32,265 bases of DNA from an uncultured archaeon (GTDB taxonomy: Archaea > Aenigmatarchaeota > Aenigmatarchaeia > GW2011-AR5 > WALA01). The stretch lies in contig CAYYKR010000001.1 in assembly GCA_964469235.1 (NCBI GenBank), forward strand, positions 1 to 32,265, in the 5' to 3' direction. The first letter of the stretch is position 1. Each line of letters opens with the position of its first letter. This document shows positions 2,331 to 12,270 of this stretch, one piece after another. Below the pieces are notes generated by a model. That model did no database searches, had not been told where the DNA came from, and worked only from the letters and a program-made list of their open reading frames with translations. Position numbers and translations under genes: made by a program.

Positions 2331-4072
2331 GGATAGCAGTAGTTAATTATGATAAATGCGATTCTACAAAATGTTCATGGGAATGCATGAAAGTTTGTCC
2401 AATAAATAGAAAGGGAGAAGTTTGCATAAGTGGCGGAGAAGTTATTGTAAATGGCTCAAAGAAAAAAGTTCCGATAATAGATGAATCTATATGCATTGGA
2501 TGCGGATTGTGTACAAAGAAGTGCCCTATGGAGGCAATTAAAATTGTCAACACTCCAGAACAATTGAATGAAACTCCGATTCATAGATATGGAAGAAATG
2601 GGTTTGTTCTTTTCAGACTCCCAATTCCAAAGGTGGGGGTTGTGGGGCTTCTTGGTTCAAATGGAATAGGAAAAACCACGGCGCTTAAAATTCTTGCTGG
2701 CGAATTAAAGCCGAATTTGGGAAATGAAGAATCAAATTGGGATGAAATAATAAGAGCTCACAAAGGTACGGAGCTTTTTAACTACATGAAAAAACTTTCA
2801 AAAGGAAGCATAAAGGCTATTTACAAACCTCAGCAAGTTGATAAAATTCCAAAGTTCATAAAAGGAAAGGTTGAAGATTTGATGAAGGGAGTTTCAAATG
2901 AGATTAAGAGAAAGCTCCATGTAGATAAAATTCAAAATAGAAATTTGAAAAACCTTTCTGGTGGTGAGCTCCAGAGAGTTGCAATAGCAGTAGCTCTTTC
3001 GAAAGAGGGAGATATATTTTATTTTGATGAGCCGACATCGTATTTAGATGTTAAAGAAAGGTTAAATGTTGCTAAGCTCATTAGGGAAAAATCAAGGGAA
3101 TCTCCTATAATAGTTGTTGAACACGATTTGGCAACCTTGGACTTCTTGGCCGATACAGTTCATATATTTTATGGTGTTCCCGGTGCGTTTGGTGTTGTTT
3201 CAAAGCCTTATACAGTTAGAAATGGAATAAATGCATTTTTAGATGGTTATGTGAAAAGTGACAACGTCAGATTTAGAGAGCCCACCGTGTTTGAAAAATA
3301 CAGTCGCATAAAGAAGCGTACAGAATCACTTGTTGAGTTTTCTGATATTGAAAAAACATTTGAAGGATTCAAACTTTTTGTAAAGTCAGGAAAAATATAC
3401 AAGAATCGTGTTCTTGGGATTCTTGGAGAAAATGGACTCGGTAAAACAACATTTATGAAAATACTTGCAGGTGAATACACAGATTTTAAAGGTAGTATAA
3501 ATGAAAAATTGAAAATATCTTACAAGCCTCAATTCATATCGTCTGATTATGATGGAACGGTTTTGTCATTAATTTCTTCAGTTTTCAATCCATACTCTAC
3601 AGAAATAATGAATACAATAATAAAGCCGTTGAAGATAGATAAACTCTTCGAGAAGACTGTTAAAAATCTTTCTGGTGGTGAGCTCCAGAGAGTTTCAATA
3701 GGAATTTGTCTTGGAAGAAAAGCTGATATGTATTTGCTGGATGAACCTTGCGCATATTTGGATGTTGATCAAAGGCTTGCAGTCGCAAGCATATTGAAAA
3801 AGAAAAGCGAAGGAAGCACGGTAGTTGTTATAGACCACGATTTATTGTTCTTGAATTATGTTAGCGATGACACAATGCTTTTTACAGGTGTTCCAAGTGT
3901 TGAAGGTCATGGTGAAGTTATGAGCCTTGAAGATGGCATGAATAAATTCTTGAAAGAAATCGGGATAACATTTAGAAAAGACCCGGAGAACAATAGGCCA
4001 AGGGCAAACAAGCCGGGTTCACAAAAAGACCAGGAGCAGAAATCAAAGGGAAGATACTATTTTATGGTATGA
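2327..4072 (+). CDS. abce1: ABCE1 / RNase L inhibitor-type ribosome-recycling ATPase
   Basis: N-terminal di-cluster Fe-S domain (Cx4Cx3Cx3CP and CIGCGLCTKKCP). Two ABC cassettes: Walker A GSNGIGKT and GENGLGKT, signature LSGGELQRV twice, Walker B FYFDEP and YLLDEP. Confidence 0.94.
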   Translation: MRIAVVNYDKCDSTKCSWECMKVCPINRKGEVCISGGEVIVNGSKKKVPIIDESICIGCGLCTKKCPMEAIKIVNTPEQLNETPIHRYGRNGFVLFRLPIPKVGVVGLLGSNGIGKTTALKILAGELKPNLGNEESNWDEIIRAHKGTELFNYMKKLSKGSIKAIYKPQQVDKIPKFIKGKVEDLMKGVSNEIKRKLHVDKIQNRNLKNLSGGELQRVAIAVALSKEGDIFYFDEPTSYLDVKERLNVAKLIREKSRESPIIVVEHDLATLDFLADTVHIFYGVPGAFGVVSKPYTVRNGINAFLDGYVKSDNVRFREPTVFEKYSRIKKRTESLVEFSDIEKTFEGFKLFVKSGKIYKNRVLGILGENGLGKTTFMKILAGEYTDFKGSINEKLKISYKPQFISSDYDGTVLSLISSVFNPYSTEIMNTIIKPLKIDKLFEKTVKNLSGGELQRVSIGICLGRKADMYLLDEPCAYLDVDQRLAVASILKKKSEGSTVVVIDHDLLFLNYVSDDTMLFTGVPSVEGHGEVMSLEDGMNKFLKEIGITFRKDPENNRPRANKPGSQKDQEQKSKGRYYFMV

Positions 4073-4352
4073 ACAAAAATTTCTTAAGATTTATTTTTCC
4101 ATTTTTTACTTCTACACCCTCGCTCCTAAGTATCTTTATCTTATTTTTAACACCTCGAGCAAATCCTCCAATTGAACCATCTGACATAACAACTCTTTGG
4201 CATGGAACATCTTTTCTATCGTTTGTATGAAGTATTGATCCAACGGCTCTTGGAGATGTATTTGCAATTCGTGCAACGATTCCGTATGTAGAAATTTTTC
4301 CTTTCGGGATCTTCTTTACAAATGAATAGACCCTTTCCCTACTGGTGGGCAT
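4062..4352 (-). CDS. MGMT-family (O6-alkylguanine-DNA alkyltransferase-like) DNA-binding-domain protein, PCQRV variant
   Basis: 96 aa. YGIVARIANTSPRAVGSILHTN...VPCQRVVMSDGSIGGF matches the helix-turn-helix/Asn-hinge/PCHRV core of the alkyltransferase C-terminal domain, and no N-terminal domain is present. It overlaps the upstream gene by 14 nt and the convergent ABCE1 3' end by 11 nt. Confidence 0.75.
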   Translation of the reverse strand: MPTSRERVYSFVKKIPKGKISTYGIVARIANTSPRAVGSILHTNDRKDVPCQRVVMSDGSIGGFARGVKNKIKILRSEGVEVKNGKINLKKFLFIP

Positions 4353-4794
4353 TCAATATCCTCTCTATATTTTTTAGTCTGTGAAGAATCATTTCATTTT
4401 GAGATCTTATTGATTCCATCTCTTCCATTATAAGATCCATCCTATCATTTATGTCTTGACCTTTTCCCATACCACTTTCGCGAATCCTATTGAAGTTTAT
4501 ATTTTCACCTTCATCAAGGTTTTTATTTTCTTGATTTGAAAATTGATTTTTCATCGGCATATTTAATGGTTGGAATGGTGGTATGTTGTTTTCTCCAACT
4601 TCTTTTTTAATTTCTTCTTCTATTGTTCCGGACCTCTGTTTTGCCAGTTGCTCGGGGGTTGGGAATGGATTGTATTTGTCGAGATTTATTTTTGGCTTTT
4701 GCTCTACAGCGTATTTTAGCTCATTATTAATTTCATTTGATTCTATGTTTCTCCTTCCCGTTATCTTATCTTTTATTTTATCGAGCAGAGACAT
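4339..4794 (-). CDS. hypothetical protein, 151 aa, low-complexity N/E/P-rich region with C-terminal coiled coil
   Basis: Long ORF chained to neighbours, with a 1-nt gap upstream and a 14-nt overlap downstream. The C-terminus (RMDLIMEEMESIRSQNEMILHRLKNIERIL) has a heptad-like pattern. No family recognised. Confidence 0.6.
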   Translation of the reverse strand: MSLLDKIKDKITGRRNIESNEINNELKYAVEQKPKINLDKYNPFPTPEQLAKQRSGTIEEEIKKEVGENNIPPFQPLNMPMKNQFSNQENKNLDEGENINFNRIRESGMGKGQDINDRMDLIMEEMESIRSQNEMILHRLKNIERILNAHQ

Positions 4795-4795
4795 C

Positions 4796-5305
4796 TTATA
4801 TTCCCTCCAAATCTTCTTTTACATTTATGTTAAATGCATTCAAAATATCTTCTTTAAAATCCAATGCCCATTCTTTTAGGGTGTCCATATACTGCCTTCT
4901 TCTATTGTAATAGAACATCCTCATAAATATTTTGTAAAACAATCTTTCTAAAAAATTTTTGTATGAGAATGATGTAGTTATGATGGGCCTTACTGAAAGC
5001 GTGAAATCTCCATCCTTAGTTTTCTTGCCCTCATACATATGAAATATTAATCGTACATCGTATTTCGTATATTTGTCAAATTTATTCTTGGCATTCCATT
5101 GAGCGTAAAGCTCAACCTCTGGACCTATGTCTACAAATGTGAATTCATTTTCATACCAGTTTTTTGTTGGAACGCGAAAATTCTTTTTTGCTACGGTTTT
5201 TATTATGTTGATTGCAGATGATGGTTGGTGACCCTTGTATGAAAATTTAATTGTTCCTTTAGGTGCGAGAACTTCTTCAGTCATGCTTAATTTATTAAGA
5301 CTCAT
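4796..5305 (-). CDS. hypothetical protein, 169 aa (paralogue A of a tandem pair)
   Basis: Same length and shared landmarks with the upstream ORF (F.[YF].G..P ... KK.F.VP ... W ... P..T.F ... FY ... FY..[RK]R). Overlaps it by 11 nt. Confidence 0.65.
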   Translation of the reverse strand: MSLNKLSMTEEVLAPKGTIKFSYKGHQPSSAINIIKTVAKKNFRVPTKNWYENEFTFVDIGPEVELYAQWNAKNKFDKYTKYDVRLIFHMYEGKKTKDGDFTLSVRPIITTSFSYKNFLERLFYKIFMRMFYYNRRRQYMDTLKEWALDFKEDILNAFNINVKEDLEGI

Positions 5306-5804
5306 TTAACAGCACCCCAAAGTGTTTTAATTCGGCTTGGAATCTCATACAGAGCTCCCTTCCATTGTCATATATTTGTTCTCTCTTTCTTTTGTAAAAT
5401 ATAGTGTCCCAGAGCTTTCTTATGACTTCATAAAAAACGCTTTGCTGCCATGCGTAATCTTGTGGAAATTCGGTTACAACTCTCGGCTCAAACACTATTG
5501 CTGCCTTTCCATATCCATTTTCAGAATATCCCTTGAGACTGAGCTCCATGTCTAAGTATGTCCATCTGTCGTAAGGTTTGAACAATTCCCAAGAAATTTT
5601 GAATTTATGACCATTTTCAGTTTTTTTCCAATTGTACTCCTTTTCTTGGATGTAGGAATCTGGAACGGCAAAAATCTTTTTTAGCAGTTCATTTATCTTT
5701 ACATAGAACTTTTCAGGATGTTTTCCTTCAAATCTAAAATATATCTTTTTTATGGGTGGGAACAAATCCTCCCATATAGTAAGTCTAGTCCTTGCCCATA
5801 CCAT
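5295..5804 (-). CDS. hypothetical protein, 169 aa (paralogue B of a tandem pair)
   Basis: First gene of the minus-strand chain. ATG at 5804 is preceded by GGTG with 6-nt spacing. Paralogous to 4796-5305. Confidence 0.65.
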   Translation of the reverse strand: MVWARTRLTIWEDLFPPIKKIYFRFEGKHPEKFYVKINELLKKIFAVPDSYIQEKEYNWKKTENGHKFKISWELFKPYDRWTYLDMELSLKGYSENGYGKAAIVFEPRVVTEFPQDYAWQQSVFYEVIRKLWDTIFYKRKREQIYDNGRELCMRFQAELKHFGVLLNES

Positions 5805-5847: not shown

Positions 5848-6180
5848 ATGATATTTCAAATTTTGGGCATTTTATTACTTTCGCTCGGCGTATGGATGCT
5901 TGTAACATGGGACAGAGGGCTTGATAATAAGACCTTTACAATAGTTATAATTTTGTCCATTTTATTTATATTTTTGGGTGTTAAGTTAACATTTGATGGT
6001 GTGAATCCGTCAGTTCTATGGCACAGAATACTTGGGATTGCGATAGGATTTGCTGGAGTTTTTTGCATAGTGGGATTCCCAGATGTTACTCCTGATTATC
6101 AGAGTCCAGGAATGAGCTGGCTCATGGTATTCATAGGAATAATACTTATGGTAGTTGCAGTCTATCTTCTTATTATATAA
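5848..6180 (+). CDS. small integral membrane protein, about 4 TM helices
   Basis: 110 aa, four hydrophobic stretches of about 18-20 residues. First gene of the plus-strand chain, 43 bp from the divergent gene. Confidence 0.6.
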   Translation: MIFQILGILLLSLGVWMLVTWDRGLDNKTFTIVIILSILFIFLGVKLTFDGVNPSVLWHRILGIAIGFAGVFCIVGFPDVTPDYQSPGMSWLMVFIGIILMVVAVYLLII

Positions 6181-6213: not shown

Positions 6214-8094
6214 ATGGCAAAACCTATTACTCGAAGATATCTGCTCGATAATAGCTATTTCGATCATGGACTTAGAGATGCCGGTGTACCGCATGCTCCA
6301 GCAAATTTATTTGGACCGTTTGGAAAGTTCAAAGGTTATGCATGGGTATCGCAACCATTGGAAGGGTATTCAAACATAGTTTACATTTCTAGTCCTGGAA
6401 AAACGAGGACGGTATTTAATGGACTTATGGATTGGATGGACCAAAACAAATGGAAGAATATAGTGTTTGACAAATCAATTGAAGTGACGCCAACTCACAC
6501 AAAGTTATATCAGAGTGTTATAGGTCAGAAGTATGAGCTTCAGGCAAGGATAAAACAGGCACTTGTTTCCATATCTCAATCTGTTGCAGATTTGGAACTC
6601 TTAGAGCATGATATAAGAAAGTATGAGGAATTTGATGAATATTTGAAGGGTATGGATACAGATGTCAATCATGTAAGGGATAAAAAAGAGAAGAAGGAGC
6701 TCGAGAGAAAGAAAAAATTTTCTGAGATGGCTATAAAAACAGTTTTTGTAGATCAAGTCGATTATCATTCTGGCGGGACTGGACAAGGTCCCGGAAGGCT
6801 AAGTATGGCATTTATGAGAAACAACAACATAATGCCAACAATAGTTGATGATTTTATGATTATGGGCGGACCAGATGATTTGGACAATGGTCCGTTAAAA
6901 AATTTGTCAACAGTCGAGAAGAATATGCTTCGTATAAAATGGAAAGCATATCAAGCATGGCTATCAAGCTTTAGGAATGAGGTTGAAAGTAGATTGGGCA
7001 GACTCACTCAACTTAGAATGAGCAGGGAGAAAACACTCGATGAATTTAGGGAATGGGTCAAGCCAATTATATCGAGAGAACTTGCAATAAAGGAAGGATT
7101 CTCTGAAGAAGGAAATAGAACATTTGAAAATATAATTGGAACCGAATATTCATCTTTGGGAGAGGCTACCGCTCAGACTTATAACAATATATTATCATTT
7201 CATAGACTTTCAATTGAAGAAGTTCAAAAGACGCCATCTGAAATGTATGAAATGGCAAGCGAAAAAATTTCCGAGCTTGATTTGAAAAACATATACGATA
7301 GCATGTCTGAAATACTTGTTCTTGATGAAAATGTTGGGCTTAGAGTAAAATATCCGTGGATAACAAAAGCATGGGTAGATAGTGTTAAAGGAGATTGTAT
7401 TTCAAGGGTCAAGAGTTTAATGCTGAAAGGATTTTCAAGATATCTAATTATGTCAAATATAAGATATATGACAAGAAATACGATATATCGTGGTGAATTT
7501 GAAGTTGAAATTGGTGTGTACTTGATTGACACATTCATGATAACACCAAATATAGCAGTTGTAAAAATGATAGAGCAAAAGGCTAAGGATGAAGAGATAA
7601 AGAGATATATAAATCAAATGCTCGGACTTAAAGATGATAGAAGGACCTTAACTTATACAATAAAAAATGGAAGATATGTTGTGAATAAAGAAAATGTAAA
7701 AAAAGTCGTTAGAGATGGTGGCGACGAAAAATCTGGTTTTAAAAATTATGATGAATTGATAGAAAAATATCCGGAAAGTAGATATAAACTTAGATTTACT
7801 CCTGAAGGTGAAAATGGAACGCTTAAAGAAATTAGAAATGTATTCAACTTCAAATTTGATTTCCTAAATCATTTGTTTCCAACGCATCCAGGTGAATATT
7901 TTTCAAGTGATTATGGAGATTATATCTACAACAAATTTAGAAAAATGAAAGGCAGGGGCATGTTCTTCTCATCAACACCTTACGATAAGGACTTCTTTGA
8001 TAGGGTTGCACAATTCCATATGGTTATTACGGGAATAAATAACGGCAAGATACGTGGGAAAATTCAAAGTCTTATGGGCGTTCCGGGAATTTAG
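6214..8094 (+). CDS. large hypothetical protein, 626 aa, no family recognised
   Basis: Uninterrupted 626 codons with protein-like composition. Charged helical segment about residues 125-175 and a Gly-rich SGGTGQGPG loop at residues 186-194. Confidence 0.7.
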   Translation: MAKPITRRYLLDNSYFDHGLRDAGVPHAPANLFGPFGKFKGYAWVSQPLEGYSNIVYISSPGKTRTVFNGLMDWMDQNKWKNIVFDKSIEVTPTHTKLYQSVIGQKYELQARIKQALVSISQSVADLELLEHDIRKYEEFDEYLKGMDTDVNHVRDKKEKKELERKKKFSEMAIKTVFVDQVDYHSGGTGQGPGRLSMAFMRNNNIMPTIVDDFMIMGGPDDLDNGPLKNLSTVEKNMLRIKWKAYQAWLSSFRNEVESRLGRLTQLRMSREKTLDEFREWVKPIISRELAIKEGFSEEGNRTFENIIGTEYSSLGEATAQTYNNILSFHRLSIEEVQKTPSEMYEMASEKISELDLKNIYDSMSEILVLDENVGLRVKYPWITKAWVDSVKGDCISRVKSLMLKGFSRYLIMSNIRYMTRNTIYRGEFEVEIGVYLIDTFMITPNIAVVKMIEQKAKDEEIKRYINQMLGLKDDRRTLTYTIKNGRYVVNKENVKKVVRDGGDEKSGFKNYDELIEKYPESRYKLRFTPEGENGTLKEIRNVFNFKFDFLNHLFPTHPGEYFSSDYGDYIYNKFRKMKGRGMFFSSTPYDKDFFDRVAQFHMVITGINNGKIRGKIQSLMGVPGI

Positions 8095-8110
8095 TTGATT
8101 GGTGTTTAAA

Positions 8111-10072
8111 ATGGTAGAATTTGATGAGTATGGAAAACCTAAGGGATATATTATTGCGGCTAGTCCTGGGTTTAGTCAATTTGGTCAAGGTATGGAAAAG
8201 CTGACATTTTCCGGACTTGCAAGAAAAATAAGTAAAGCTGCCAGACTTGGTTTTGAATTTGCTATGATAGATTATGAAGCTCTTTCAGAAATGTATGAAC
8301 CCAATATAGGCGAGCAGGTTAAAAGGATGAAAGAATCTGAAAAAATGGAGGTAGGGCTTCACTTACCAATCACTTTAGACCTAACACTTGCAACATCTTT
8401 CAACTGGAGTATAATGCATGATATTCTTCAGCGCGGTGCATATTCAGGAAAGGATATAATGGGAGCTCGGTTTGTTTTGGTGCATGCATCATCGTATCCA
8501 AAGCCCGGCATAGTTTTCAGACTTGGCCAGAGAGAATATCCAGAAAAGCTCTGCGCACATGATGGAACCAATCTTGGAGAATTTATGGAGTTAGTTGACG
8601 ATGGGGTATACAACGACCCCGCGCGTGGAAATATAAAACTTTCAAATGGCCGTCGATTGAAAGACTGGTTCATGGGAAAATTCATAAAAATTCTTTTTAG
8701 TGCTATGGGTGTACCTGGTGATGTTCCAATAATAACTTACTTTGATGAAATGTCGTACAATGATGTTTATTTTGCTGAAGCTGTTAAAAAGGCAAAGCAA
8801 TTTGTTTCTGATGTTGAAAAGAGGAAAGACGAGTATGTTACAAAAAGGATGGATGAACTTATAAAAGAGGCAAATTCAATAGAAAAACAAATTAGGGACA
8901 TGGAGAAGAAAAGCGACCTTACAGAAGAAGAAAGGTCAGTATATGAAAATCTAAAAAATAAATACATTAGTTTGAGACACGATATAGACTTGGGAAACAA
9001 TAAATTCGCAAATGAATTTTTTAACAACATGGATAAAGATGAAATTAAAAAGTACATGGAGAGAAAGCGTGTAATAGAAACCGTTGAAAGATACGAATTC
9101 AATCATGTTTACGATTATTGGAAATACAATGGGTCTCAAGCGGAAGAAAATGTTGCCTATAGAGTTATTGCTAAATACATGTACCTTACCGGAGATCCAA
9201 TATGGCTCGATATAATCGGTGATATTGATCCTGACCATATAATAGATGCAGATAATAAAGTGAGAACTGCTCCTGAATTGAAGGGAAAGAAGAACAAGGA
9301 TATAAAAGAACTTGTTGATAAATTCATAATTGCCGTTGCAATAAAATATATTCAAGGCCATCTATTTTCAACTTCAACTGGAAAGGGCATGGAGAGGTAC
9401 GGATTCAACGGCTCTGTTTATGATTATTTGACTAAAAACAAGATAAGAATTTACTTTGAGAATTCTCCCCCTCTAAAAGAAGGGAGTGGAGAATTGAGAA
9501 TATCGTCCGTCATGGGATTGATAGATATTGCAAAGGAGATTGACAATGGAACATTTATTTCTGCTGCCGTGGATACCGAGCATTTGATGTCAAATCTCTA
9601 CTCTCCTTATGAACAGTTTTCATCTATTCCAGATGGATATGGAAAATACATTACGATGCTTCATATAAATGGACCGCGTCCAATTCATCCAACCCACTCG
9701 CCAATTTTTTTATACTCTCCAGACATGGAAATTATTTACAAATGGCTTTACACATTGAAAAAGAGAGGGATGACATCAGCATATTTTGTTTGGGAAATGG
9801 GGTCATATGGAGTTCGGGAGAGTGCTATAGCAATGAGACTTATAAGAAATGAGCTCTCAAAAGAAAATCCTACACCCCCAGATAAACTTCCACCAGAATT
9901 TTTCGGTATGGATGAAACATTCGATGCACGCCAAATGGTTGCCATACGTGAACATGCGTTTGACCCTCTCGAAGGTCTTATAATGGTCCCAGAAGAAAGT
10001 CATACATTCTTGTCTACGGCTGCTAAATCCAAAGGAGGGTTGGCAGTTTGGAACAAGGAGAAGTACTCATGA
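8111..10072 (+). CDS. EndoIV / xylose-isomerase-like TIM-barrel protein with large charged helical insertion (tentative)
   Basis: An ordered series of motifs resembles the AP-endonuclease-2/sugar-isomerase barrel metal ligands: EFAMIDYE, VGLHLP, FVLVHASSYP, then about 250-300 aa of K/E-rich sequence, then RIYFEN, AAVDTEHL, MLHINGP, HPTHSP, YFVWEMG. The track start at 8099 is TTG; the ATG at 8111 follows GGTG with 6-nt spacing. Confidence 0.5.
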   Translation: MVEFDEYGKPKGYIIAASPGFSQFGQGMEKLTFSGLARKISKAARLGFEFAMIDYEALSEMYEPNIGEQVKRMKESEKMEVGLHLPITLDLTLATSFNWSIMHDILQRGAYSGKDIMGARFVLVHASSYPKPGIVFRLGQREYPEKLCAHDGTNLGEFMELVDDGVYNDPARGNIKLSNGRRLKDWFMGKFIKILFSAMGVPGDVPIITYFDEMSYNDVYFAEAVKKAKQFVSDVEKRKDEYVTKRMDELIKEANSIEKQIRDMEKKSDLTEEERSVYENLKNKYISLRHDIDLGNNKFANEFFNNMDKDEIKKYMERKRVIETVERYEFNHVYDYWKYNGSQAEENVAYRVIAKYMYLTGDPIWLDIIGDIDPDHIIDADNKVRTAPELKGKKNKDIKELVDKFIIAVAIKYIQGHLFSTSTGKGMERYGFNGSVYDYLTKNKIRIYFENSPPLKEGSGELRISSVMGLIDIAKEIDNGTFISAAVDTEHLMSNLYSPYEQFSSIPDGYGKYITMLHINGPRPIHPTHSPIFLYSPDMEIIYKWLYTLKKRGMTSAYFVWEMGSYGVRESAIAMRLIRNELSKENPTPPDKLPPEFFGMDETFDARQMVAIREHAFDPLEGLIMVPEESHTFLSTAAKSKGGLAVWNKEKYS

Positions 10073-10143
10073 AGGCAATAGAAAACTTTAAATACTACAT
10101 ATGTATATATTTACTTATAAGTAATAAATTGTAAGGTGGTTAA

Positions 10144-11391
10144 ATGGTAGAAATTGTAAAAGATATGAAAGATGAAAAAAAAGAGGGTATAAAGTATTCA
10201 ACAAGTAAAAGTGAAAAGAAGAAGAATGAAAAAAAGGTTGATTTGAAGAAGTTGCGTGAAGAAAAATTCAAGCTAGCGAAGAAATTTGCAGACCAAGTTG
10301 TAAAGAAATACGGATCTGTCATAAAATCTATTGTTGTATTTGGTTCTGTTGCTCGAGGGGACATGACAGAAAAAAGTGATTTGGACATAATAGTTGTTTA
10401 CGATGATGTTCTTTCTAGGATGAGCTCCGACGTTAAGGAAAAATTTGATGAAGATTTGACTCTAACGGCTAAAAAATTGGATAAGGACATGTCAATTCAG
10501 CCTGCGTGGTCATTATCGGAATTTTGGGAAATGGCACGTATAGGGCATCCACTTTTGATAACAATTGTGAGAGACGGCTGGGCAGTTTATGATACTGGAT
10601 TTTTCATACCATTTAGAAAGCTCTTGGAAATGGGAAAAATACCTTCAACACTTGAAGCTGTAGAAGTTTTCATTTCAAATGCTCCTGAGAAAATTATGAA
10701 AGTTGAAAATATGAAACTTTACATGATAGCTGAAGATTTATACTATGCCGTTTTGAATGCATCTCAATCGGTTTTGATGTATTTAGGGCAGGGTGTTCCA
10801 TCTCCAAAGAACACTGCAAATATTTTCAGAAGATATATGGTTGATACTGGAATAGTTGATGAGAAGTATGCAAGATTCTTAGAAAAAATTGTTGAATTTA
10901 GGAAGAGGGTTGAGCATAAAGAAGTTAGAGAGGTTAGTGGTGCCGAACTCGATAGATACATAAGAAGATCAAAGATATTCGTTTCTAAGATGATGCATGT
11001 TTTGAGTCGTCTTCAGAGAAAGAAAAAAGAGGATATGATAAAAAAGAATTACGACAACATGTTAAAAGCATGTATAATAAAATTGAAGGAAATGAACAAA
11101 CTTGAAAAAGATCCAAAGAAGTTGCCTGAGCTCATCGACAAAAATATATTTAAGACAAAAGAAAACAAACCTTATAGGGAGATATTCAAGCGTGTAATAG
11201 CAATGAGAAAGTTAGTTGAAGAAGGCGAAGTCAAGAAAATACCTGAACGTGATATAGACCTTGTAAATGGATACGTAAATAGATTCTTGAAGAGCATGAA
11301 CTTATCAGAGGAAACCATAGAAAAAGGAGGAAAGATATTAGAAGATATAATTGGAAATAATAAAGATAATGAGAAAGAAGATAAAAAATGA
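10144..11391 (+). CDS. fused minimal nucleotidyltransferase (MNT) - HEPN-like protein with K/E-rich N- and C-terminal extensions
   Basis: Pol-beta-type NTase motif FGSVARGDMTEKSDLDIIVV. Downstream helical domain ends in EFRKRVEH (Rx4H, HEPN-like). SD AAGGTGG lies 4 nt upstream of the ATG. Confidence 0.65.
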   Translation: MVEIVKDMKDEKKEGIKYSTSKSEKKKNEKKVDLKKLREEKFKLAKKFADQVVKKYGSVIKSIVVFGSVARGDMTEKSDLDIIVVYDDVLSRMSSDVKEKFDEDLTLTAKKLDKDMSIQPAWSLSEFWEMARIGHPLLITIVRDGWAVYDTGFFIPFRKLLEMGKIPSTLEAVEVFISNAPEKIMKVENMKLYMIAEDLYYAVLNASQSVLMYLGQGVPSPKNTANIFRRYMVDTGIVDEKYARFLEKIVEFRKRVEHKEVREVSGAELDRYIRRSKIFVSKMMHVLSRLQRKKKEDMIKKNYDNMLKACIIKLKEMNKLEKDPKKLPELIDKNIFKTKENKPYREIFKRVIAMRKLVEEGEVKKIPERDIDLVNGYVNRFLKSMNLSEETIEKGGKILEDIIGNNKDNEKEDKK

Positions 11392-11400
11392 GGTGGTTAG

Positions 11401-11604
11401 ATGAAACCAGATTTTTCCATTCACGGACTCTGGATTTTGGGTGCCGTGTTTATGACATTTGGGTGCTTGATTTTAGGGAATGTTGAATGGGTTGAAGGAA
11501 CTACAACATCAAGTTTTATAATATCATTGACTCTTGCATTTTTGCTCATACTGATAGCTGGAATGTTTTGGATATCAGCAGCAGTTAATGCAAAGAATGT
11601 GTAA
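11401..11604 (+). CDS. small membrane protein, 2 TM helices
   Basis: 67 aa with two hydrophobic helices. Starts 9 nt after the previous stop, preceded by GAGGTGG. Confidence 0.5.
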   Translation: MKPDFSIHGLWILGAVFMTFGCLILGNVEWVEGTTTSSFIISLTLAFLLILIAGMFWISAAVNAKNV

Positions 11605-11625
11605 AGAAATCAAAAATAAATTCAA

Positions 11626-12270
11626 TTAATTTTGAAGTGGTTCTTCTTTTTCTTTTTTCTTCTCTTCACCTTTTGGTTTTTCTTCGATGCGATTTCCTTC
11701 CTTGAGAACTTTTGACTTTATTATTTCAACAGCTCCAACAGGATAAATCTTTTTTATCTCCTCTTTGAGAGCTCTGTTGTAGCTTCCGTTTAGCATTCCA
11801 TCTATAACAGATGATATATCTGAGTTTTTTGTTAAGTTTTTCAATATCCCTTCTGCTTTTTTTCTGACATCTGTGTTTATGGAATTGCTCGTGTTTCTTA
11901 AAAGTATAATGAGAACTTTAAATCTAATTTTGGAGCCATCTTTTAAGCTTATGTCTTTTATAACATCAACTCTTTCAGACCTTCTTTGAACAAGTCTGTA
12001 AATTCTATCCCTTGTATATTCATGTCCGGCAAAAGTTGTATATGCTTTAAGTCCGTCTACTTTGTACACTCTGAGCTTTACCTTTATATAAAATTTGCTC
12101 ATGCTGCCAGTGAGCTCCATCATGCTTGATTCATGAATTCTTCCAACCAAGTTTTTCGGGTCGAATGCAGGTGTTTCACCTACAGTTTTCCCTCCCAATG
12201 ATGGAGGTGCTATGATTTGATACCATTCTTTGTTTAATGCCACATTATCACCATTTTTGTTGATTTTCAA
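11626..12270 (-). CDS. rps3ae: 30S ribosomal protein S3Ae (eS1)
   Basis: KEWYQIIAPPSLGGKTVGETPAFDPKNLVGRIHESSMMELTG...FAGHEYTRDRIYRLVQRR is the typical S3Ae core. The start is uncertain: TTG at 12270 or GTG at 12243 after GGTGA. Confidence 0.9.
   Translation of the reverse strand: MKINKNGDNVALNKEWYQIIAPPSLGGKTVGETPAFDPKNLVGRIHESSMMELTGSMSKFYIKVKLRVYKVDGLKAYTTFAGHEYTRDRIYRLVQRRSERVDVIKDISLKDGSKIRFKVLIILLRNTSNSINTDVRKKAEGILKNLTKNSDISSVIDGMLNGSYNRALKEEIKKIYPVGAVEIIKSKVLKEGNRIEEKPKGEEKKKEKEEPLQN

What the first reader, a model, noticed from the sequence alone, without database searches (positions are those of the whole stretch)
8111..10072. EndoIV / xylose-isomerase-like TIM barrel interrupted by a roughly 250-300 aa charged helical insertion
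Seen: the ordered motifs are LGFEFAMIDYE, VGLHLP and FVLVHASSYP, then a long K/E/D-rich stretch (for example VEKRKDEYVTKRMDELIKEANSIEKQIRDMEKKSDLTEEERSVYENLKNKY), then RIYFEN, AAVDTEHL, MLHINGP, HPTHSP and YFVWEMG. Established: in AP endonuclease family 2 and sugar-phosphate isomerase/epimerase barrels the metal ligands come in this order (H, H, E, D-x-x-H, H, D/H, E) at the ends of successive beta strands. Inference: this is a metal-dependent barrel whose halves are separated by a coiled-coil-like module, an architecture I do not know from characterised members. Together with the MGMT-like gene across the divergent promoter, a DNA-lesion-processing role is conceivable.
Basis: partly seen in the sequence, partly recalled or inferred. 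Interest (0 to 1): 0.6.

Follow-up and report, generated by a model that had tools for sequence, protein, structure and literature searches.

The report
Split endonuclease-IV-like barrel enzyme
[quoted passage not shown] The barrel is cut in two by a roughly 265-320-residue extra domain that carries a protruding helical arm, nearly every genome of the phylum has the gene, and nobody has described what it does.

Summary
ORF 8111-10072 (+) holds every quoted motif in the stated order.

- **Fold:** an AlphaFold2 model (pLDDT 87.6) and Foldseek show that the two halves form one xylose-isomerase-like TIM barrel.
- **Insertion:** about 265-320 residues lie between the H129 strand and the E454 strand. 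Only about 108 of them form the charged coiled-coil hairpin, which varies in length between relatives. The rest is a conserved cap.
- **Metal ligands:** with the insertion removed, a profile comparison aligns H88, H129, E454, D492/H495, H522, H533 and E566 with the ligands of the canonical endonuclease-IV-like family. Each is kept in 99-106 of 107 diverse relatives.
- **Distribution:** the family is in 279 of 301 genomes sampled from the phylum (97 of 98 good ones). It also occurs in Nanohaloarchaeota.
- **Neighbours:** it often sits next to a 550-630-aa protein with no recognisable fold and a minimal nucleotidyltransferase.

The suggested link to an MGMT-like gene fails. That gene lies four genes away and is absent from related loci, and a canonical endonuclease IV next to PolX exists elsewhere in the genome.

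Best reading: a lineage-specific multinuclear-metal phosphoesterase working in a conserved module, substrate unknown. Earlier follow-ups of this scan report the same architecture on other DPANN DNA.

The parts
8111..10072 (+). Gene for the split EndoIV-like TIM-barrel protein (653 aa from the ATG at 8111; 657 aa if read from the TTG at 8099)
   Evidence: ORF listing. GGTG at 8101-8104 lies 6 nt before the ATG. The database copy P0001 is 653 aa.
8111..8503 (+). N-terminal barrel half (res 5-135): strands 17-22, 54-58, 84-88 and 125-129, with ligands H88 (8360-8362) and H129 (8483-8485)
   Evidence: AF2 secondary structure; hhalign to the canonical EndoIV-like family; H88 kept in 104/107 and H129 in 105/107 relatives; codons checked.
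8504..8770 (+). Conserved first part of the insertion (res 136-224), with invariant G156 and W190
   Evidence: Alignment A1; 107-sequence alignment; AF2 pLDDT above 90.
8771..9094 (+). Variable, charged antiparallel coiled-coil hairpin (res 225-332; helices 225-269, 276-310 and 313-332)
   Evidence: AF2 model; length 83-202 aa and no sequence conservation among relatives; 46% charged residues.
9095..9445 (+). Conserved second part of the insertion plus the helix that returns to the barrel (res 333-449), with W341, G345, E350, Y354, G420 and H421
   Evidence: Alignments. Helix 399-423 aligns with the canonical helix between the H and E strands.
9446..9886 (+). C-terminal barrel half (res 450-596) with ligands E454 (9458-9460), D492 (9572-9574), H495 (9581-9583), H522 (9662-9664), H533 (9695-9697) and E566 (9794-9796); E494 is also conserved
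   Evidence: PF01261 matches this half in 22/45 homologues; hhalign; each residue kept in 99-106/107 relatives; codons checked.
9887..10069 (+). Conserved C-terminal tail (res 597-657: LPxEFFG, REHAxDPL, PEE, W651), partly of low model confidence
   Evidence: Invariant and near-invariant columns; pLDDT 49-60 for the last 40 residues.
6214..8094 (+). Upstream partner p626: coiled-coil protein with no recognisable fold; its stop codon lies 16 nt before the barrel gene's ATG
   Evidence: Own family of 54 clusters. No Pfam or PDB sequence match. AF2 pLDDT 76.6 with no significant Foldseek match. Directly upstream in 25/44 evaluable loci. Homologue also upstream in Nanosalina (hhalign E 7.5e-23).
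10144..11391 (+). Downstream MNT-HEPN fusion (minimal nucleotidyltransferase with a HEPN-like helical domain)
   Evidence: PF01909/PF18765. The GS..DxD motif is kept in all 17 orthologues, but Rx4H is not. Within 400 nt downstream in 15/40 evaluable loci and also in Nanosalina. Described as family cls.004259/NEQ050 in PMC6393860.
4339..5804 (-). Divergently transcribed unit: p169b (5295-5804), p169a (4796-5305) and p151 (4339-4794). The two 169-aa proteins are paralogues of unknown fold.
   Evidence: ORFs; alignment A4; no Pfam or PDB match; linked to the barrel gene in several rearranged orders.
5848..6180 (+). Small membrane protein tm110 that heads the plus-strand unit
   Evidence: Hydrophobic ORF; homologues at the same position in related loci.
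11401..11604 (+). Small membrane protein tm67 that ends the plus-strand unit
   Evidence: ORF; 49-64% identical homologues after the MNT-HEPN gene in 10 loci.

Best explanation
The gene encodes a catalytically competent metalloenzyme of the endonuclease IV branch of the xylose-isomerase-like TIM barrels.

Shown here:
- The two sequence halves fold into one eight-stranded barrel.
- They carry, in canonical order, the ligand set H-H-E-D..H-H-H-E of the multinuclear metal site.
- Between the fourth and fifth ligand-bearing strands lies a 265-320-aa module. It is a conserved cap domain from which a length-variable antiparallel coiled-coil arm projects.
- The protein is a near-universal core gene of its phylum. 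It is repeatedly linked to a coiled-coil protein with no recognisable fold (p626), a minimal nucleotidyltransferase (MNT-HEPN) and a pair of 169-aa paralogues.

Inferred:
- It hydrolyses a phosphoester with a two- or three-metal centre, as EndoIV and UVDE do.
- The cap restricts the site to a specific substrate, and the arm and C-terminal tail dock partners or a large substrate.
- It is not the cell's general AP endonuclease. It works with the nucleotidyltransferase on a shared substrate, most plausibly by cleaning or cutting nucleic-acid (RNA or DNA) 3' ends that the transferase then extends. This would parallel the canonical EndoIV-PolX pair encoded elsewhere in the same genome.
For: - **Fold:** AF2 gives pLDDT 87.6 and pTM 0.85. 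Foldseek matches only xylose-isomerase-like barrels. These include D-allulose 3-epimerase 7cj9, aligned over about 600 query columns at TM 0.65-0.67 per target, and EndoIV 3aal/8axy, which have the highest identity at 17%.
- **Family link:** PF01261 is matched by 22/45 homologues. With the insertion excised, hhalign against the class's canonical EndoIV-like family aligns 229 columns (E 1e-4) and pairs every ligand. That canonical protein matches solved EndoIV and UVDE structures and the nfo models.
- **Selection:** the ligands are kept in 99-106 of 107 diverse members.
- **Core status:** present in 279/301 genomes and 97/98 high-quality ones.
- **Linkage:** neighbours stay linked in several rearranged orders. 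The p626-barrel-NTase triad recurs in Ca. Nanosalina in a different genomic setting.
- **Precedent:** in P. furiosus, the EndoIV homologue that keeps the two N-terminal His is a nuclease, while the paralogue lacking them has neither nuclease nor DNA-binding activity (PMC2770678).
Against: - This protein itself matches no Pfam or NCBIfam model.
- HMMER profiles find no solved structure.
- The hhalign probability is only 57%.
- The best Foldseek E-values belong to sugar epimerases, not nucleases.
- The EndoIV D229 equivalent is not present (consensus G-A-H).
- The Tyr after the first His, typical of canonical enzymes, is missing.
- The protein is mildly acidic with no basic segment.
- The neighbours include membrane proteins and proteins without recognisable relatives, which do not point to nucleic acids.
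- The HEPN RNase motif of the neighbour is lost in some lineages.
- Linkage to p626 and the NTase is frequent but not obligatory.
- I could not inspect model coordinates, so the ligand geometry is unverified.
Confidence: 0.45

Rival explanations
1. It is a sugar or sugar-phosphate isomerase, epimerase or dehydratase of the DTE/UlaE/IolI type. It would use the E-D-H-E single-metal site, with the insertion shaping a sugar pocket or mediating oligomerisation.
For: The top Foldseek matches are D-tagatose/D-allulose 3-epimerases, UlaE and 3-keto-glucoside lyases. E454, D492, H522 and E566 correspond to that family's four ligands. Some database copies are auto-named 'sugar phosphate isomerase/epimerase'.
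Against: H88, H129, H495 and H533 are almost invariant. Those residues are hallmarks of the EndoIV/UVDE branch and are not needed for E-D-H-E chemistry. The best profile link is to the EndoIV-like family. No sugar-metabolism gene is conserved beside it. It is a core gene in genomes of 0.4-1.3 Mb.
Confidence: 0.15
2. It is a phosphodiesterase that acts at the membrane on lipid head groups or another envelope phosphodiester, as part of a membrane-associated complex. DPANN archaea are thought to depend on host lipids.
For: Two small membrane proteins bracket the operon. Several p626 orthologues carry an N-terminal hydrophobic helix. Sub-threshold START-like or helix-grip matches recur for a p626 subdomain (all E > 1).
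Against: The START-like matches are not significant. The barrel protein has no membrane segment. No lipid gene is consistently linked. The Nanosalina triad has no such membrane genes beside it.
Confidence: 0.12
3. It is a genuine DNA-repair AP endonuclease or 3'-diesterase, and the arm recruits repair partners.
For: The EndoIV-type ligand set is present. A neighbouring Pol-beta-superfamily transferase echoes the EndoIV-PolX pairing.
Against: A canonical EndoIV-like gene sits beside PolX in the same genome and in 49/61 genomes of the class. The MGMT link is not conserved. The Tyr after the first ligand His is absent. The neighbour is an MNT-type transferase, not a templated polymerase.
Confidence: 0.1
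4. It is an MNIO/DUF692-like multinuclear iron oxidase that modifies a peptide or protein together with a partner subunit (p626), as MbnB does with MbnC.
For: From my own knowledge, MNIO enzymes share the barrel and a very similar H/H/E/D/H/D-H/E ligand pattern and need a partner protein. Here a partner of unknown fold lies directly upstream.
Against: None of 45 members matches PF05114. The chemistry needs O2, whereas the family is core in a lineage found mostly in anoxic habitats (habitat from my own knowledge). No precursor-peptide gene is evident.
Confidence: 0.06

Closest known systems
Endonuclease IV (Nfo, AP endonuclease family 2; solved e.g. 3aal, 8axy, 1xp3) and its short archaeal relatives (P. 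furiosus PfuAPE PF0258; the 252-aa gene in this genome)
   Same: TIM barrel. Same order and strand positions of H, H, E, D-x-x-H, H, H and E. Shared local motifs: HxP...(N/D)L, FH(T/P)(S/G), IE(T/N), DxxH, HxN. Highest identity among the Foldseek matches.
   Different: A 265-320-aa cap plus coiled-coil arm is inserted between the second His strand and the Glu strand, and there is a 60-aa conserved tail. No D229 equivalent and no Tyr after the first His. Sequence similarity is detectable only profile to profile. The protein coexists with a canonical copy.
UV damage endonuclease UVDE (PF03851; 2j6v, 3c0q)
   Same: From my own knowledge, UVDE uses an H-H-E-D-H-H-H-E set without the EndoIV Asp, which is the pattern seen here. 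The canonical relative in this genome matches UVDE chains.
   Different: No PF03851 match in 45 members. No insertion in UVDE. UVDE was not among the top 50 Foldseek matches.
D-tagatose/D-allulose 3-epimerase family and MJ1311 (PDB 3wqo, 'D-tagatose 3-epimerase-like protein')
   Same: These are the best Foldseek E-values and give whole-barrel superposition across the insertion (4q7i, 2ou4, 7cj9; 3wqo_B at rank 32, E 9.5e-3). The E-D-H-E ligands are shared.
   Different: Per my own knowledge, these enzymes lack the conserved His pair of the first half. They have no insertion. MJ1311 is listed in the literature only as a predicted EndoIV homologue (PMC2770678).
MNIO enzymes (DUF692: MbnB, TglH)
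   Same: Same superfamily, similar multinuclear ligand pattern and dependence on a partner protein (my own knowledge).
   Different: No PF05114 match. Their chemistry depends on oxygen. They have no coiled-coil insertion.

Membership tests
Xylose-isomerase-like TIM barrel superfamily (Pfam PF01261 AP_endonuc_2) | Match to the PF01261 profile above its gathering score | tested here: inconclusive
   The window protein has no match. 22 of 45 full-length homologues match (best E 4.4e-12, 39-47 bits against a cut-off of 31.1), covering profile positions about 99-233, i.e. the C-terminal half.
Xylose-isomerase-like TIM barrel superfamily (Pfam PF01261 AP_endonuc_2) | Single (beta/alpha)8 barrel fold | tested here: met
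   AF2 pLDDT 87.6. All significant Foldseek matches are members of this superfamily. 7cj9 chains align over about 600 query columns with TM 0.65-0.67 per target, so both halves are used.
Endonuclease IV (Nfo) | Nine metal ligands H69, H109, E145, D179, H182, H216, D229, H231 and E261 (E. coli numbering) | tested here: inconclusive
   Eight are aligned and conserved: H88, H129, E454, D492, H495, H522, H533 and E566. The D229 position (two residues before H533) is P/G/A. E494 (100/107) might substitute for it, but this was not shown.
Endonuclease IV (Nfo) | DNA-recognition elements, including the aromatic residue after the first ligand His that enters the AP site (Y72 in E. coli, from my own knowledge) | tested here: not met
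   The class's canonical family has HAPYyINL. The split family has H-(G/L)-(E/S/P)-(I/L/V) with no aromatic residue.
Endonuclease IV (Nfo) | Match to the curated nfo models (TIGR00587, NF002196) | tested here: not met
   No NCBIfam match for the window protein or for P0032 and P0060. The genome's 252-aa canonical copy matches them weakly (E 8e-14).
Endonuclease IV (Nfo) | AP-endonuclease or 3'-diesterase activity | not testable with these tools
   Needs biochemistry.
Sugar-phosphate isomerase/epimerase (DTE/UlaE type) | E-D-H-E metal site on the last four ligand strands | tested here: met
   E454, D492, H522 and E566 are kept in 104-106/107 relatives. This feature is shared with EndoIV, so it does not discriminate.
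MNIO / DUF692 (PF05114) | Profile match to PF05114 | tested here: not met
   None of the 45 members scanned matches at E <= 0.01.
UVDE (PF03851) | Profile match to PF03851 | tested here: not met
   None of the 45 members scanned matches at E <= 0.01.

The most novel reading that the evidence does not exclude
The split barrel, p626 and the minimal nucleotidyltransferase form a DPANN-specific, essentially universal three-protein machine for a housekeeping reaction that other archaea carry out differently or not at all. One example would be trimming of damaged or cyclic-phosphate RNA 3' ends by the barrel, followed by untemplated extension by the transferase. In this picture p626 and the coiled-coil arm hold a large substrate such as a ribosome, a tRNA or imported host nucleic acid.
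Probability: 0.2. Interest if true: 0.8.

Novelty: new variant of a known kind. Interest (0 to 1): 0.58.

Why it matters
DPANN archaea have very small genomes, so a 650-aa enzyme kept in 97 of 98 good genomes of a phylum is very likely important to the cell. The gene is also present in Nanohaloarchaeota. Even so, it has no name, no Pfam match of its own and no paper that I could find.

It is a tractable target. The predicted active site gives clear point mutants, and the partners are known from gene order. One orthologue lies in a complete Nanosalina genome. Finding its substrate could reveal a lineage-defining process in these symbionts. It would also show how an endonuclease-IV-type metal centre can be retargeted by inserting a cap and an arm into the barrel.

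Tried and rejected
- **HMMER profiles against PDB sequences:** the whole family and the C-terminal half gave only coiled-coil or chance matches.
- **hhalign against a single canonical sequence:** weak for the N half and empty for the C half. It worked only after I excised the insertion and built a canonical-family profile.
- **p626:** no Pfam match, no PDB sequence match and no significant Foldseek match. Its tubulin-like 'GGTGQG' loop is missing in three orthologues, so I dropped the idea of a GTPase.
- **p169a/b:** no Pfam or PDB match.
- **Paired arm lengths:** I tested whether arm length in the barrel tracks the p626 hairpin length. There is no positive correlation (rho -0.41).
- **Barrel as de-AMPylase of the neighbouring HEPN domain:** the acceptor Tyr two residues after the HEPN His, described for fused MNT-HEPN (PMC13000451), is absent, and Rx4H is lost in some lineages.
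- **MNT-HEPN as replacement for the CCA-adding enzyme:** rejected, because a canonical one is present.
- **Model coordinates:** not available to scripts, so I could not measure ligand geometry or the position of the cap.
Full report
**What is there.** The ATG at 8111 lies 6 nt after a GGTG (8101-8104) and 16 nt after the stop of the upstream gene. The database copy starts there too, so the finding's coordinates are right. The window is archaeal and AT-rich (GC about 0.30-0.39). It carries RtcB, ABCE1, S3Ae and a DHH-family phosphoesterase. The whole assembly is 661 kb, and the nearest public relatives are labelled Aenigmatarchaeota.

**Fold.** The protein itself matches no Pfam or NCBIfam model.
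- It has 62 full-length relatives at 37-71% identity. Of 45 that I aligned, 22 match PF01261 (xylose-isomerase-like TIM barrel / AP endonuclease 2) above the cut-off, through their C-terminal half.
- An AlphaFold2 model built on that alignment is confident (pLDDT 87.6, pTM 0.85).
- Foldseek against the PDB returns only xylose-isomerase-like barrels. D-tagatose 3-epimerase is first (E 4.6e-4). D-allulose 3-epimerase chains align across about 600 query columns with TM 0.65-0.67 per target, which means both halves of the sequence build one barrel. Endonuclease IV (3aal, 8axy) is the match with the highest identity, 17%.

**Anatomy of the insertion.** Strands 17-22, 54-58, 84-88 and 125-129 form the first half of the barrel, and strands 450-454, 487-492, 518-523 and 561-566 form the second. 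About 320 residues lie between them.
- In the profile alignment with uninterrupted relatives, helix 399-423 takes the place of the ordinary connecting helix. The true insertion is therefore about 265 residues, plus a 25-residue loop.
- Residues 225-332 are an antiparallel helical hairpin rich in K, E and D (46% charged). This part has no conserved sequence and varies from 83 to 202 aa among relatives.
- Its flanks (136-224 and 333-423) are conserved, with invariant G156 and W190, and with W341, G345, E350, Y354, G420 and H421.
- The module is therefore a conserved cap carrying a variable arm, not simply a charged linker. A conserved C-terminal tail, modelled with low confidence, follows the barrel.

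**The metal site.** I removed the insertion from the family alignment. I then compared it with a profile of the short (about 250-280 aa) EndoIV-like proteins of the same class.
- hhalign aligned 229 columns (E 1e-4, probability 57%). It paired H88, H129, E454, D492/H495, H522, H533 and E566 with the H, H, E, D/H, H, H and E of the canonical family.
- That canonical protein matches solved endonuclease IV and UV-endonuclease chains directly (E 6e-7 to 6e-3). It also matches the nfo models weakly.
- In a 107-sequence alignment that combines 50%-identity cluster representatives from the 1.84-billion-protein library with ten closer homologues, each of these residues is kept in 99-106 sequences. H421 (102), E494 (100), G156 (106) and P526 (104) are kept as well.
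- Two EndoIV features are not kept. The Asp two residues before the last His is replaced by G-A or P-T, and the Tyr after the first His (HAPYyINL in canonical proteins) is missing.

**Distribution.** The family profile finds only 191 cluster representatives among 1.84 billion.
- Within the phylum it is nearly universal: 279 of 301 sampled genomes, 97 of 98 high-quality genomes and 142 of 151 genera.
- The canonical EndoIV-like gene is less universal (49 of 61 genomes, 36 of 44 good ones). In this genome it sits directly beside a PolX gene.
- The most distant profile hits are from Nanohaloarchaea. They include an 800-aa orthologue in the complete genome of Ca. Nanosalina sp. VS9-1.
- Earlier follow-up notes of this scan report the same architecture in Woesearchaeota, Nanoarchaeota, Parvarchaeota and another Aenigmatarchaeota genome. 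I tested only the Aenigmatarchaeota and Nanohaloarchaeota parts.

**Context.** In the window the gene is third in a plus-strand unit: tm110, p626, barrel, MNT-HEPN, tm67. This unit is transcribed divergently from p169b, p169a, p151 and, in this genome only, an MGMT C-terminal-domain ORF.
- The same block, without the MGMT ORF, lies between ABCE1 and S3Ae in relatives whose barrel protein is only about 40% identical to this one.
- Across about 50 loci the members stay linked in several different orders and orientations. p626 is directly upstream in 25 of 44 evaluable loci. The nucleotidyltransferase lies within 400 nt downstream in 15 of 40, and a few more sit slightly further away. The p169 pair is within 5 kb in about half.
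- Where p626 is not adjacent, it is elsewhere in the genome.
- In Nanosalina the flanks are entirely different (A-type ATPase operon, MoxR/DUF58). The triad of a p626 homologue (hhalign E 7.5e-23), the barrel and an NTP_transf_2 protein is still intact. That is good evidence for a functional module.
- p626 has no Pfam, PDB-sequence or significant fold match, and p169a/b have none either.
- The MNT-HEPN fusion is the DPANN family noted by Makarova et al. as 'typically in house-keeping context' (PMC6393860). Its nucleotidyltransferase motif is kept in all orthologues, but the HEPN Rx4H is lost in some.

**Interpretation.** The structural statement rests on several independent results: one barrel, EndoIV-type ligands under strong selection, a conserved cap, a variable arm, and core status in the phylum.
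- The chemistry is inferred. The His pair of the first half and the D-x-x-H and final His of the second half are typical of the EndoIV/UVDE branch and are not needed for sugar epimerase chemistry.
- In P. furiosus, the EndoIV homologue that keeps the two His is a nuclease, while the paralogue lacking them neither cuts nor binds DNA (PMC2770678).
- I therefore favour a multinuclear-metal phosphoesterase.
- A canonical EndoIV/PolX pair exists separately, and the DNA-probing Tyr is missing. So I do not think this is the general AP endonuclease.
- The recurrent pairing with a Pol-beta-superfamily transferase suggests end-processing followed by nucleotide addition. This is an analogy, not a result.
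- Alternatives remain open: a membrane-directed phosphodiesterase, a sugar isomerase, or an MNIO-like oxidase.

The MGMT-like ORF is four genes away, at the far end of the opposite unit, and has no counterpart in any related locus. It gives no support to a DNA-lesion role.

**Limits.** I could not read model coordinates, so ligand geometry and the position of the cap over the active site are unverified. The link to EndoIV is profile-level and of moderate probability. The wider DPANN distribution rests partly on unchecked earlier notes.

**Verdict.** This is a real, conserved and undescribed variant of the endonuclease-IV-like barrel, with a unique inserted domain and unknown substrate. It is of moderate to high interest and directly testable by expression and assay.

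Noticed in passing
L004 1450-2208 (-) and 2205-3614 (-) (own genome, contig C11): A canonical 252-aa EndoIV-like gene overlaps by 4 nt with a 469-aa PolX-like gene (Pol-beta fold plus PHP domain, judged by eye from the sequence). This looks like a compact base-excision-repair pair.
   Followed up: partly
window 6214-8094 and orthologues P0088, P0095, P0104, P0107: Several p626 orthologues begin with a hydrophobic, membrane-anchor-like helix that the window's copy lacks. The Gly-rich loop HSGGTGQGPGRL is conserved in most orthologues but absent in three divergent ones (P0114-P0116).
   Followed up: partly
window 10144-11391 and orthologues in L037, L039-L041: In the MNT-HEPN fusion, the nucleotidyltransferase motif GSx10DxD is kept in all 17 orthologues. 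The HEPN Rx4H motif degenerates to AKxxEH/AKDVEY in the longer (547-595 aa) orthologues.
   Followed up: partly
window 4062-4352 (-): A stand-alone 96-aa MGMT DNA-binding/C-terminal domain reads VPCQRVV instead of PCHRV. It overlaps the ABCE1 stop by 11 nt and has no counterpart in related loci.
   Followed up: partly
L008 (JAIVYS010000035.1) and L015 (JAIWAJ010000024.1): Contigs binned as 'Bathyarchaeota' and 'Methanosarcinales' MAGs carry this DPANN-type gene at 42-43% identity with the same neighbours as Aenigmatarchaeota contigs. The contigs are probably mis-binned.
   Followed up: no
L084 (Ca. Nanosalina sp. VS9-1, CP180230.1) 6346-11761: The p626-like, split-barrel and NTP_transf_2 triad lies beside the A-type ATP synthase operon and a MoxR/DUF58 pair, a setting quite different from the one in Aenigmatarchaeota.
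   Followed up: partly
L014 11028-11918 (+): In the lineage where the barrel gene is not followed by MNT-HEPN, a 296-aa ORF with no Pfam match takes that place. Glycogen-synthase-like and GT4 glycosyltransferase genes follow on the other strand.
   Followed up: no
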